Source of the DNA: a virus
Lineage: Duplodnaviria > Heunggongvirae > Uroviricota > Caudoviricetes
Length of the DNA: 48,445 nt
Virus record (IMG/VR): IMGVR_UViG_2571042005_000001
Coordinates: 1 to 48,445 of that record
Reading direction: 5' to 3' (one strand)
A program made the position numbers and the translations under genes. The notes beneath the pieces are model-generated. The model had not been told where the DNA came from. It saw nothing but the letters and a program-made list of their open reading frames with translations, and searched no databases. Below, one piece after another: positions 27,362 through 28,014 of this stretch (within the stretch, counting starts at the first letter, position 1; every line of letters begins with the position of its first letter).

Positions 27362-27607
27362 ATGTTGCTTTCGGCATTTGAACCCCAAAAAATCCACCCT
27401 TTGGCTTTTCTTGTGTTTGCTGCGCTCCTGCTGGTCTCTGGTCCACCCAAAGGGTGCTCTTCCTGCAGCACCATCAACCTGTCAACACTCAATTCAGTCC
27501 TGATTTTCAATCTTGATACCGATTCGGACTCAAAACAAACCCCTTGCAATGGCTGTAGAGTCCCAATGGTCACCGCTGAAGTGGGTAAGCCTTGCGGGTA
27601 CTGCTGA
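27362..27607 (+). CDS. 81-aa hydrophobic-leader peptide with 3 CxxC motifs
   Basis: TAAACT-6nt-ATG; LAFLVFAALLLVSGPPKGCSSC...PCNGC...PCGYC-stop. Confidence 0.7.
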   Translation: MLLSAFEPQKIHPLAFLVFAALLLVSGPPKGCSSCSTINLSTLNSVLIFNLDTDSDSKQTPCNGCRVPMVTAEVGKPCGYC

Positions 27608-28014
27608 TGGCCATGCCTCACACCCTCAGCATGCGGCACGCAACACGCCCACAACCCACCAGTCACACCATGACCTGGGTGATTGCTGTCATTGCCTTCC
27701 TCGCCCTGCTCTGGCCCATCAATGGCTGCGCAATCTGCAACCCGATCACCCAGCCTTCCATCCAACTTTCCATTCCGCCAGTCGGTGGCTGCAGCACCTG
27801 CAATGCTCTGGCTGCCGTCACCTCAGGCCCCTGCCCCTTTTGCACCGCAATGGCACCAGCACGGGCCTCTCAACCCACCGTGACCTCAGGCCCGTGCTCT
27901 GGATGCAGCACCACGACCCTCCCAGAGCAGCAAGTCCCCTGCAATTGGTGCATGGTGCTGCATCCAAAACCACCACCAAGTCCTCTGGTAAGCCGTCCTT
28001 GCTCAATGTGCTGA
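27607..28014 (+). CDS. 135-aa hydrophobic-leader protein with 6 CxxC motifs
   Basis: TGATG coupling; GCAIC, GCSTC, PCPFC, PCSGC, PCNWC, PCSMC-stop. Confidence 0.72.
   Translation: MAMPHTLSMRHATRPQPTSHTMTWVIAVIAFLALLWPINGCAICNPITQPSIQLSIPPVGGCSTCNALAAVTSGPCPFCTAMAPARASQPTVTSGPCSGCSTTTLPEQQVPCNWCMVLHPKPPPSPLVSRPCSMC

What the first reader, a model, noticed from the sequence alone, without database searches (positions are those of the whole stretch)
27362..28014. Second coupled pair: hydrophobic-leader proteins built from repeated (G/P)CxxC motifs, with the same architecture as the 2954/3076 pair
Seen: an 81-aa ORF with 3 CxxC and a 135-aa ORF with 6 CxxC motifs, both ending PCxxC-stop. They have a leaderless start (TAAACT-6nt-ATG) and the same TGCTGATG junction as the first pair. 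LLLVSGPPKGCSSC also echoes LTTLLGPPGNCSG. The spacers are S/T/P-rich and there is no CxxCH, so these are not c-type cytochromes. Inference: an expanded paralogous family of exported or membrane Cys peptides, possibly metal or redox binding, polyprotein signal precursors, or RiPP substrates for an enzyme encoded elsewhere.
Basis: partly seen in the sequence, partly recalled or inferred. Interest (0 to 1): 0.7.

Follow-up and report, generated by a model that had tools for sequence, protein, structure and literature searches.

The report
Phage-borne membrane proteins with CxxC repeats
Two overlapping small genes on a Deinococcus phage-plasmid are very probably real and belong to a tiny, previously undescribed family of membrane-anchored or exported proteins built only from repeated CxxC cysteine pairs, carried as optional cargo by a few related phages; their function is unknown.

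Summary
ORF1 (27362-27607, 81 aa, 3 CxxC) and ORF2 (27607-28014, 135 aa, 6 CxxC) exist and overlap by one base (TGATG). Every cysteine sits in a (G/P)CxxC, and both ORFs end PCxxC-stop.

They are real genes of a very narrow family with five members:
- the two ORFs here;
- a 134-aa paralogue in a chromosomal prophage of the same genome;
- a 173-aa homologue on a metagenomic phage contig;
- an 89-aa protein of Deinococcus roseus.

Only the CxxC frame is open in all five loci; the rival frame 27513..28196 is broken in two homologues. dN/dS is about 0.4. All five starts have a TAnnnT box 5-7 nt before the ATG, the Deinococcus leaderless-mRNA layout, and ORF2 is followed by a strong terminator.

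AlphaFold gives one N-terminal helix and no fold for the Pro/Ser/Thr-rich CxxC tail. Pfam, NCBIfam, PHROGs, PADLOC and PDB give no match.

In three elements the gene faces the end of the phage lysis cassette, in a slot that holds variable cargo in related phages (moron-like). No RiPP maturase lies in either mobile element, and the genome has no MNIO enzyme.

Best reading: an accessory, phage-encoded, membrane-tethered envelope protein with disulfide or metal-binding CxxC units. Its function is not established. The link to the 2954/3076 pair is suggestive, not proven.

The parts
27350..27355 (+). TAAACT, a -10-like TAnnnT box 6 nt upstream of the ORF1 ATG (leaderless promoter layout)
   Evidence: One search gives the sequence. 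One search shows equivalent boxes (TACACT, TACACT, TATAAT, TATGCT) 5-7 nt before the ATG in the C1, L002, D. roseus and pair-1 loci. One search gives a 1.3% background frequency. PMC12340547 states that the TANNNT motif lies about 6-7 bp upstream of leaderless ORFs in Deinococcus.
27362..27607 (+). ORF1: 81-aa short family member with a hydrophobic segment (residues 14-27), GPPKGCSSC, a Cys-free linker, then PCNGC...KPCGYC-stop
   Evidence: It aligns to the N-terminus and C-terminus of the C1 and P0002 homologues and scores 97.7 bits against the family HMM, which was built with it.
27401..27442 (+). Codons for the ORF1 hydrophobic core LAFLVFAALLLVSG
   Evidence: uncharged core, residues 14-27.
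27607..28014 (+). ORF2: 135-aa long family member, translationally coupled to ORF1 (TGATG overlap), with a hydrophobic helix (residues 21-36) and six (G/P)CxxC units in a Pro/Ser/Thr-rich tail ending RPCSMC-stop
   Evidence: The AlphaFold model has a helix at 20-35 and pLDDT below 50 for the rest.
27667..27714 (+). Codons for the ORF2 hydrophobic core TMTWVIAVIAFLALLW
28020..28048 (.). 12-bp-stem hairpin with T-runs on both strands: a bidirectional terminator between ORF2 and the convergent MmeI-type gene
   Evidence: terminator-like site; -17.8 kcal/mol, z = -5.16, 0 of 200 shuffles fold as well.
2954..3189 (+). First pair (40 aa and 37 aa), possible minimal relatives: the same TGCTGATG junction, a C-terminal Cys-TGA, and in the second peptide a hydrophobic stretch followed by GPPGNC
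   Evidence: GPP..C after an uncharged hydrophobic stretch occurs in only 3 of 93,869 ORF segments of the genome: ORF1, the C1 paralogue and this peptide. The HMM score is at noise level.

Best explanation
ORF1 and ORF2 are two real, translationally coupled genes. They belong to a lineage-restricted orphan family carried by temperate phage-like elements of the Deinococcus roseus clade.

Each protein has three parts:
- a short polar N-terminus;
- one hydrophobic helix of 14-17 uncharged residues ending in Gly/Pro;
- an unstructured, nearly uncharged Pro/Ser/Thr/Ala-rich tail carrying 3 to 9 self-contained (G/P)CxxC units about 10-13 residues apart, always ending PCxxC at the very C-terminus.

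The cassette is self-contained, with a leaderless promoter box and its own terminator. It sits in the variable cargo slot facing the distal end of the lysis cassette, so it behaves like a phage 'moron' (an optional gene expressed independently of the late operon).

Inferred mechanism: the hydrophobic segment acts as an uncleaved signal-anchor, or as a signal peptide, and puts the tail outside the cytoplasmic membrane. There the host DsbA/DsbB system would oxidise each CxxC into a small disulfide loop, or the thiol pairs would hold soft metal ions. The result would be a membrane-tethered, extended envelope protein that changes the surface or periplasm of the lysogen, for example by superinfection exclusion or by redox or metal buffering.

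Shown: the coding frame, the family, the architecture and the genomic position. Inferred: topology, cysteine chemistry and biological role.
For: Coding frame and family:
- The CxxC frame is the only frame open in all five loci.
- All Cys columns are conserved, with 63% identity and dN/dS about 0.41 between the C1 and P0002 homologues.
- The family is found only in the genus containing D. roseus, plus one phage contig: searches found the members, and searches found nothing further.

Expression signals:
- TAnnnT lies 5-7 nt before the ATG in all loci, against a 1.3% background. This matches the published Deinococcus leaderless rule (PMC12340547; PMC4007540, listed).
- A terminator follows ORF2, and a stem-plus-T-run follows the C1 copy (visible in the sequence; not scanned).

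Architecture:
- AlphaFold gives a single helix and no fold for the tail.
- The tail is 13.8% Pro, 12.1% Cys and about 20% Ser+Thr, with few charges.
- Odd CxxC counts (3, 7, 9, 3) favour autonomous units over paired Zn(Cys)4 sites.

Mobile-element context:
- The C1 copy lies in an IMG/VR viral contig.
- P0002 lies on a 58.7-kb contig with ParA, tape-measure and GH19 genes.
- In the window, C1 and L002, the gene is convergent with the GH19 / holin-like / lipoprotein cassette.
- Related cassettes in other Deinococcus genomes have other genes in that slot and no CxxC gene.
- In this window the flanking cargo is defence genes.

Host oxidising system: DsbA-family genes and a DsbB are present.

Topology hints:
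- The ORF2 N-flank has two Arg.
- The first-pair peptide 2954-3073 carries PPGNC after a classical positively charged signal peptide, which places that motif outside the cell if the pairs are related.
Against:
- Topology is ambiguous. In ORF1, C1 and P0002 the only Lys/Arg within 15 residues of the hydrophobic core's C-terminal end is the Lys of GPPKGC, and the N-flank has none or one. By the positive-inside rule this could equally favour a cytoplasmic tail.
- The hydrophobic core is short for a transmembrane helix. Pro at +1 after the Gly argues against signal peptidase I cleavage, and the sequence does not fit a lipobox.
- With only five homologues, the failure of AlphaFold to find a fold is weak evidence for disorder.
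- The superinfection-exclusion or redox role is analogy only.
- In D. roseus the gene is divergent from GH19 rather than convergent, so positional conservation is not uniform.
Confidence: 0.5

Rival explanations
1. Membrane-tethered cytoplasmic metal-binding tail. The N-terminus faces out and the CxxC tail stays in the reducing cytoplasm, where pairs of CxxC bind Zn (zinc-ribbon or knuckle-like) or Fe/Cu. The protein would act as a regulator or a metal sink.
For: CxxC pairs 9-20 residues apart match zinc-ribbon spacing. UniRef auto-names the D. roseus member 'double zinc ribbon'. The C1 copy gives a weak sub-threshold zf-CXXC hit (14.1 bits against a 26.5 cut-off). The positive-inside rule mildly favours C-in for three members, through the Lys of GPPKGC.
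Against: No zinc-ribbon family reaches threshold in any member. Four of five members have an odd number of CxxC units. The Pro/Ser/Thr-rich, nearly uncharged linkers are unlike known cytoplasmic zinc fingers. AlphaFold builds no knuckles or ribbons. ORF2 has an Arg-rich N-flank typical of N-in.
Confidence: 0.2
2. RiPP precursors. The hydrophobic leader or signal peptide is followed by multiple Cys-containing cores, which are modified by a maturase encoded elsewhere in the host (for example YcaO, LanM or a radical SAM enzyme) and then exported.
For: Sec-signal-bearing, Cys-motif RiPP precursors exist (bufferins and other MNIO substrates; PMC12452194). The tail is Ser/Thr/Cys-rich, and the C-terminal CxxC-COOH recalls AviCys-forming peptides (my own knowledge, not tested). 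The host does encode 3 YcaO, 1 LanM-like and 1 SPASM protein.
Against: The genome has no MNIO. No maturase family lies on contig C14 or in the C1 prophage, nor within 8-10 kb of the L002 or D. roseus copies. The host LanM has three unrelated precursors of its own next to it. The genes travel on phages without any enzyme. Lengths up to 173 aa and variable repeat number are atypical. No NCBIfam RiPP-precursor model matches.
Confidence: 0.1
3. Secreted bioactive peptides: Sec-dependent disulfide-rich bacteriocin-like toxins, or signal peptides released from a repeat precursor. The two coupled genes would act as a two-peptide pair.
For: There are two small coupled genes on a plasmid-like element. 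The N-terminus looks like a signal, cysteine counts are even, and a divergent 2-TM membrane protein (26471-27276) could be an immunity factor.
Against: The other three loci have a single gene and no homologue of the 2-TM protein. There is no double-glycine leader, no exporter and no conserved cleavage site between units. Pro at +1 disfavours signal peptidase cleavage.
Confidence: 0.1
4. Lysis accessory proteins (spanin-, antiholin- or lysin-inhibitor-like) that work with the neighbouring GH19 cassette.
For: A family member lies within 0.4-2.5 kb of a GH19 lysin gene in three loci and 9 kb away here, with cargo in between. In D. roseus the juxtaposition has a different orientation, hinting at more than residual synteny. 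Known spanins are Pro-rich and disulfide-linked (my own knowledge).
Against: The genes are on the opposite strand from the lysis genes, with their own promoter box and terminator. The cassette already has a signal-peptide protein, a holin-like protein and a lipobox lipoprotein. Related cassettes in other Deinococcus genomes work without any CxxC gene.
Confidence: 0.07
5. Not genes: chance ORFs, or the overlapping frame 27513..28196 (or the antisense ORF 27349..27765) is the translated one.
For: The rival frame is open for 227 codons here. GC3 (0.66) is lower than in the strongest phage genes of the window (0.73-0.81). There are no expression data.
Against: The rival frame has 2 stops in C1 and 3 in P0002, and the antisense frames are also broken in several loci. 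Cys pattern, indel phasing and dN/dS below 1 are all in the CxxC frame. Gene callers called this frame independently in D. roseus and in the Logan contig.
Confidence: 0.03

Closest known systems
Phage morons encoding envelope proteins, e.g. lambda Bor (an outer-membrane lipoprotein gene just beyond the lysis genes, transcribed in the opposite direction and expressed in lysogens); comparison from my own knowledge
   Same: A small exported or membrane protein gene with its own promoter and terminator, placed beyond the end of the lysis cassette in convergent orientation, present or absent among related phages.
   Different: There is no sequence relationship and no lipobox. The all-CxxC repeat tail has no counterpart, and expression in the lysogen and any phenotype are untested.
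Sec-signal-bearing Cys-motif RiPP precursors modified by MNIO enzymes (bufferins Buf1/Buf2, oxazolins, CxxxxC family, chryseobasins; PMC12452194, PMC11626156, PMC13056109)
   Same: An N-terminal hydrophobic signal-like segment followed by conserved Cys motifs; small size; a possible metal-binding role.
   Different: Those families are defined by genetic linkage to an MNIO (PF05114) and a DUF2063-type partner. This genome has no MNIO, there is no partner nearby, no Buf-type signature matches, and the motif is CxxC repeated 3-9 times.
CxxC-repeat zinc modules (zinc ribbons, DnaJ CxxCxGxG cysteine-rich domain)
   Same: Repeated CxxC with 9-20-residue spacers. The family profile even cross-hit a DnaJ zinc finger at E about 0.009.
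   Different: The motif is not CxxCxGxG, no family reaches threshold, CxxC counts are odd, a hydrophobic N-terminal anchor is present, linkers are Pro/Ser/Thr-rich, and no fold is predicted.
Phage spanins (Rz/Rz1-type), from my own knowledge
   Same: Overlapping or coupled small genes near the lysis cassette, an N-terminal membrane anchor, Pro-rich periplasmic parts, and functionally important cysteines.
   Different: Opposite strand from the lysis genes, no lipoprotein partner and no coiled coil. The cassette has its own lipoprotein, and most loci have one gene rather than a pair.
The 2954/3076 peptide pair of the same phage-plasmid
   Same: A TGCTGATG junction, a leaderless-type -10 box, a C-terminal Cys-TGA, and a hydrophobic stretch followed by GPPxxC in the second peptide.
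   Different: These are only 37-40 aa with a single C-x4/6-C loop and no CxxC. The profile score is at noise level, so homology is unproven.

Membership tests
MNIO-dependent RiPP precursors (bufferin-like) | Gene cluster with an MNIO enzyme (Pfam PF05114 MbnB_TglH_ChrH) and a DUF2063-type partner | tested here: not met
   PF05114 has no match in the 97%-complete genome. No such families appear among called genes around the L002 and D. roseus copies.
MNIO-dependent RiPP precursors (bufferin-like) | Precursor matches a known signature (DUF2282/Buf1, Buf2, EGKCG, CxxxxC) | tested here: not met
   No Pfam or NCBIfam hit for any member. The motif here is CxxC.
Lanthipeptide / linaridin-type precursors | Adjacent or dedicated LanB/C/M or HFCD decarboxylase, and a hydrophilic leader | tested here: not met
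   The single LanM-like gene on C2 has three unrelated 51-aa precursors next to it. The two HFCD-family genes lie on C59 and C63. The leader here is hydrophobic.
Radical SAM-modified Cys peptides (sacti-/ranthipeptides) | Neighbouring radical SAM/SPASM maturase | tested here: not met
   None of the 17 radical SAM hits lies on C14 or within 150 kb of the C1 copy. The one SPASM hit is on C82.
Bacterial lipoproteins | Lipobox [LVI][ASTVI][GAS]C at the end of the signal peptide, with no charged residue before the Cys | tested here: not met
   The first Cys is preceded by PPKG, PING or, in D. roseus, ITGP. Genuine lipoboxes in the same elements read LVSC and VSGC.
Zinc ribbon / double zinc ribbon (Pfam DZR and relatives) | Profile match above the gathering threshold | tested here: not met
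   No zinc-ribbon family at E below 0.1 for ORF1 or ORF2. The best hit in any member is zf-CXXC at 14.1 bits against a 26.5 cut-off.
Zinc ribbon / double zinc ribbon (Pfam DZR and relatives) | Metal bound by two CxxC knuckles | not testable with these tools
   This needs ICP-MS or spectroscopy. Odd CxxC counts in 4 of 5 members argue against simple pairing.
c-type cytochromes | CxxCH haem-binding motif | tested here: not met
   None of the 9 CxxC in ORF1 and ORF2 is followed by His.
Phage spanins | Encoded within the lysis cassette on the same strand; an inner-membrane-anchored plus outer-membrane-lipoprotein pair | tested here: not met
   The genes are convergent with the cassette, neither ORF has a lipobox, and the cassette has its own lipoprotein.
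Phage moron (accessory, autonomously expressed cargo gene) | Own promoter and terminator | tested here: met
   A TAnnnT box lies 5-7 nt before the ATG in all loci, and a terminator hairpin follows (z = -5.16). These are sequence signals only.
Phage moron (accessory, autonomously expressed cargo gene) | Present or absent between otherwise related elements, located between conserved modules | tested here: met
   The position relative to the GH19 cassette is the same in the window, C1 and L002. Related cassettes in other Deinococcus genomes carry other genes there.
Phage moron (accessory, autonomously expressed cargo gene) | Expressed from the prophage during lysogeny | not testable with these tools

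The most novel reading that the evidence does not exclude
A new class of phage-encoded, Sec-exported 'poly-CxxC' proteins. A membrane-tethered string of 3-9 autonomous vicinal-dithiol units would act in the Deinococcus envelope as a redox or soft-metal buffer, or as a multi-core precursor processed into small cyclic disulfide peptides. This would give lysogens a fitness or exclusion advantage. The tiny 2954/3076 peptides would be its minimal one-loop relatives.
Probability: 0.12. Interest if true: 0.7.

Novelty: new variant of a known kind. Interest (0 to 1): 0.42.

Why it matters
The finding adds two probably unannotated genes to a Deinococcus phage-plasmid and defines an orphan protein family with an unusually pure architecture: every cysteine is in a CxxC, repeat number varies, and the C-terminal residue is always Cys. 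The family has no match in the domain, phage, defence or structure libraries searched.

It travels as self-contained cargo next to the lysis module of several related temperate elements. That makes it a tractable candidate for a lysogenic-conversion function in a radiation- and oxidation-resistant host, for example envelope thiol or metal chemistry, or superinfection exclusion.

The family is so narrow (five members in one small clade) that its general importance is limited unless a function is shown. Correct start sites predicted from the leaderless -10 rule also improve the annotation of the D. roseus and metagenomic homologues.

Tried and rejected
- Word-indexed homologue search with ORF2 found nothing. 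The ESM Atlas feature search gave no usable hit. The PDB profile search found nothing.
- The exact-sequence look-up of the ORFs and of the rival frames found none in the collection.
- The search for related loci with the 5-member alignment failed for lack of a conserved block. With the 3-member alignment it recovered only the genome's own C1 prophage in IMG/VR, and nothing in genome contigs or metagenome contigs.
- Family-level profile hits in genus g4 (E 0.002-0.01) were inspected and rejected. They are a DnaJ zinc finger and off-frame GC-rich segments.
- Two of the three exhaustive-search hits (P0001, P0003) are unrelated repeat proteins.
- The AlphaFold model was too low in confidence (mean pLDDT 42.7) to justify a fold search, so none was run.
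- No complex prediction was run, because I do not claim that ORF1 and ORF2 bind each other.
- A shared GAAGTGGG(T) word upstream of both TGCTGATG junctions lies in different reading frames and is not significant; dropped.
- No DNA-level tandem repeat underlies the protein repeats.
- One script call was lost to a machine error and was repeated.
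Full report
**1. The observation**

The stretch 27362-28014 contains two same-strand ORFs.

- ORF1 (27362..27607) encodes 81 aa with 6 Cys, all in three CxxC (GCSSC, PCNGC, PCGYC-stop).
- ORF2 (27607..28014) encodes 135 aa with 12 Cys, all in six CxxC (GCAIC, GCSTC, PCPFC, PCSGC, PCNWC, PCSMC-stop).
- No CxxC is followed by His.
- The ORF1 stop and the ORF2 start overlap by one base (TGCTGATG), the same 8-mer as in the first pair at 3069-3076.
- TAAACT lies 6 nt upstream of the ORF1 ATG.
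- In 20,000 composition-preserving shuffles the observed CxxC count was reached 38 times for ORF1 and once for ORF2.

**2. Are they genes?**

Pfam, NCBIfam, PHROGs and PADLOC give nothing. The sequences are nevertheless conserved as proteins.

- A six-frame scan of the window's own genome (5.08 Mb, 100 contigs, window = C14:1-48445) found a 134-aa paralogue with seven CxxC on contig C1 (340611-341012, minus strand).
- An exhaustive phmmer search of 1.84 billion representatives found one true homologue, P0002. It has 173 aa and nine CxxC, and lies on a 58.7-kb Logan contig.
- A profile search added a Deinococcus roseus hypothetical protein (GCM10008938_37320, P0004), which is the hit seen in sister genome G002.
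- In the family alignment every Cys column is conserved. All members start with a polar N-terminus plus a hydrophobic stretch. The three that are not the D. roseus copy or ORF2 continue GPPKGC, and ORF2 has PINGC. The long members share PCNWCMV, and every member ends in a Lys/Arg-Pro-CxxC at the very C-terminus.
- The CxxC frame is the only one of six frames open in all five loci.
- C1 against P0002 shows 63% identity with dN 0.28 and dS 0.69, a ratio of about 0.41.

I conclude that both ORFs are protein-coding, with about 0.9 confidence even without expression data.

**3. Expression signals**

Aligning the upstream regions shows a TAnnnT box 5-7 nt before the ATG in every locus:

| Locus | Box | Spacing |
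|---|---|---|
| Window pair 2 | TAAACT | 6 nt |
| C1 | TACACT | 7 nt |
| L002 | TACACT | 7 nt |
| D. roseus | TATAAT | 5 nt |
| Window pair 1 | TATGCT | 6 nt |

Only 1.26% of all ATGs in this genome have such a box. This is the layout shown experimentally to drive leaderless mRNAs in Deinococcus: TANNNT about 6-7 bp upstream (PMC12340547), with 60% of D. deserti mRNAs leaderless (PMC4007540).

The rule also relocates two annotated starts. The L002 gene begins at an ATG two codons upstream of the called TTG. The D. roseus gene is 89 aa, not 73 aa.

ORF2 has no evident Shine-Dalgarno sequence and presumably depends on termination-reinitiation at TGATG (inference). A 12-bp-stem hairpin at 28020-28048, with T-runs on both strands, follows ORF2. 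It folds at -17.8 kcal/mol with z = -5.16. In the sequence a stem followed by a T-run also follows the C1 copy, although I did not scan it.

**4. Architecture**

- AlphaFold2 on the 4-sequence alignment gives one helix (residues 20-35 of ORF2, pLDDT about 64-78). The whole CxxC region has pLDDT below 50, with a mean of 42.7. With so shallow an alignment this is weak evidence for disorder, but no fold is recognised.
- The uncharged hydrophobic cores are 14-17 residues long, bracketed by Pro or Gly-Pro.
- Beyond residue 40 the composition is 13.8% Pro, 12.1% Cys, 10.4% Ser, 9.7% Thr and 9.5% Ala, with very few charges.
- The repeat unit is about 14 aa ([S/T]LPAxxxxPCxxC), with spacers mostly 9-13 residues. 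No DNA-level tandem repeat underlies it, so the repeats are old.
- CxxC counts are 3, 6, 7, 9 and 3. Odd numbers in four of five members argue that each CxxC is an autonomous unit rather than half of a Zn(Cys)4 site.
- The first Cys does not sit in a lipobox (PPKG-C, PING-C). Genuine lipoproteins in the same elements have LVSC or VSGC.
- Pro at +1 after the Gly disfavours signal peptidase I (established knowledge).
- Charge distribution gives an ambiguous topology. ORF2 has two Arg in its N-flank. ORF1, C1 and P0002 have none or one, plus the Lys of GPPKGC on the other side.

**5. Genomic context**

- The window belongs to a phage-plasmid-like element (earlier notes). I confirmed the genus through the D. 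roseus hit and the phage-like gene content through.
- The C1 copy lies inside a 53-kb IMG/VR viral contig of the same genome.
- P0002 lies on a contig with ParA, HTH regulators, an LPD29-methyltransferase, a GH19 lysin and a 2831-aa tape-measure protein.
- Protein-level synteny shows that in the window, C1 and L002 the CxxC gene or genes face the distal end of the lysis cassette in convergent orientation. In the window that cassette is the GH19 endolysin (37116-37733, minus), a conserved 116-aa protein (36105-36452, minus) and a lipobox lipoprotein (35746-36129, minus).
- In L002 the gap between the gene and the cassette is 54 bp.
- In C1 two extra genes intervene, and a methyltransferase is inserted upstream.
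- In the window the gap holds cargo: a GDSL hydrolase-like gene, a PD-Lambda-2_B-like gene (31035-32117) and an MmeI-type IIG restriction-modification gene (28052-30910).
- In D. roseus the gene is divergent from a solitary GH19 gene, 380 bp away, in a rearranged element that shares TGT and other genes with this window.
- Related cassettes in seven other Deinococcus genomes (genus g4) exist. In the four I fetched, no ORF with a hydrophobic stretch, two or more CxxC and a C-terminal Cys occurs within about 7 kb. The slot contains unrelated genes: a response-regulator-like ORF (my reading of the sequence, not scanned), a 167-aa ORF and a 511-aa lipoprotein.

The CxxC genes are therefore optional cargo in a variable slot. 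With their own promoter box and terminator, this is the classical moron arrangement.

**6. Testing the RiPP idea**

- The genome has no MNIO enzyme (PF05114).
- Its three YcaO genes (C7, C3), one LanM-like gene (C2), one SPASM gene (C82), 17 radical SAM genes and two HFCD flavoproteins (C59, C63) are all on other contigs or far away on C1.
- The LanM-like gene has three tandem 51-aa precursors of its own, with ordinary hydrophilic leaders.
- Called genes within 8-10 kb of the L002 and D. roseus copies carry no maturase family.
- MNIO-type RiPPs are the nearest known class that combines Sec signals with Cys motifs, but they are defined by linkage to the enzyme and its partner (PMC12452194).

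A trans-acting host enzyme cannot be excluded, but nothing supports it.

**7. Relation to the 2954/3076 pair**

- The family HMM scores the second peptide (3076-3186) at 10.8 bits and the first at 2.1 bits.
- Genome-wide, unrelated ORFs reach 10-13.6 bits, so homology is not demonstrable by profile.
- However, the pattern GPP..C directly after an uncharged hydrophobic stretch occurs in only 3 of 93,869 ORF segments: ORF1, the C1 paralogue and peptide 3076-3189. All three end in Cys.
- All seven ORFs end in a Cys codon followed by TGA.
- The identical TGCTGATG junction largely follows from 'C-terminal Cys + TGA + overlapping ATG', so it is not independent evidence.

I regard a distant relationship as plausible (about 50%) but unproven.

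**8. Mechanism**

Most likely (about 0.5) these are phage-encoded accessory envelope proteins. The hydrophobic segment would insert as a signal-anchor, or act as a signal peptide. The extended Pro/Ser/Thr-rich tail would lie outside the cytoplasmic membrane. The host's DsbA/DsbB system, which is present (no VKOR), would oxidise the CxxC units into small disulfide loops, or the units would bind soft metals.

A role in superinfection exclusion, or in envelope redox or metal buffering, is analogy only.

The rivals and my confidences are:

| Rival | Confidence |
|---|---|
| Cytoplasmic metal-binding tail | 0.2 |
| RiPP precursor | 0.1 |
| Secreted bioactive peptides | 0.1 |
| Lysis accessory | 0.07 |
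| Not genes | 0.03 |

**9. Novelty and verdict**

This is a real but very narrow orphan family with an unusually pure CxxC-repeat design, carried as moron-like cargo by Deinococcus temperate elements. It is not a member of any family tested: MNIO RiPP precursors, lanthipeptides, lipoproteins, zinc ribbons, cytochromes c or spanins. I rate it a new variant of a known kind (phage-borne small envelope proteins), of moderate interest, pending any evidence of function.

Noticed in passing
window 28052-32117: A defence island sits directly beside the pair: an MmeI-type Type IIG restriction-modification gene (28052-30910, minus; PADLOC REase_MTase_IIG E 7.6e-245) followed by a 360-aa HTH protein matching PD-Lambda-2_B (31035-32117, minus; E 2e-41). 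I did not look for other PD-Lambda-2 components.
   Followed up: partly
window 26471-27276 (minus strand; the ORF as listed runs to 27397): A membrane protein of unknown function is transcribed divergently from the pair. It has two N-terminal hydrophobic segments, then a coiled-coil-like stretch, then a C-terminal domain. It has no family hits and no homologue next to the other CxxC genes.
   Followed up: partly
L014 8001-8222 (D. roseus BMOD01000018.1) and L002 10001-10522: Two start codons are probably mis-annotated. A TATAAT box 5 nt before an upstream ATG makes the D. roseus protein 89 aa rather than 73 aa. A TACACT box 7 nt before an ATG two codons upstream of the called TTG extends P0002 to MTLLTSH...
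   Followed up: yes
G000 contig C2, about 18255-21720 (outside the window): The host has a class II lanthipeptide locus: a 950-aa LanM-like ORF with three tandem, nearly identical 51-aa precursors (MKNILNLQSMKADNSTEAMAWSTASEGCNT...GC...).
   Followed up: partly
L001 (G000 C1:333000-349000) and L002: The C1 prophage and the Logan phage contig share an LPD29-methyltransferase protein at 92% identity. The C1 copy has an extra 555-aa Type II/III-like methyltransferase inserted between that gene and the CxxC gene.
   Followed up: partly
window 32100-33900: This is an ORF-poor, lower-GC stretch (0.486-0.529) between the PD-Lambda-2_B-like gene and the GDSL-like gene. Its longest ORFs are about 100 aa, including a very hydrophobic 101-aa ORF at 33195-33500.
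   Followed up: no
window 3074-3076, 3187-3189, 27605-27607, 28012-28014; also L001, L002, L004: All seven ORFs (both pairs and the three homologues) end with a Cys codon followed by TGA. Six read TGCTGA and one TGTTGA.
   Followed up: partly
L014 (D. roseus), 3678-7622: The D. roseus CxxC gene sits in an element that shares a TGT-fold (DpdA-like) gene with this window (56% identity to 5783-6670), plus a DEAD helicase, and lies next to a DnaE2 / ImuB-like / LexA-like cassette.
   Followed up: no
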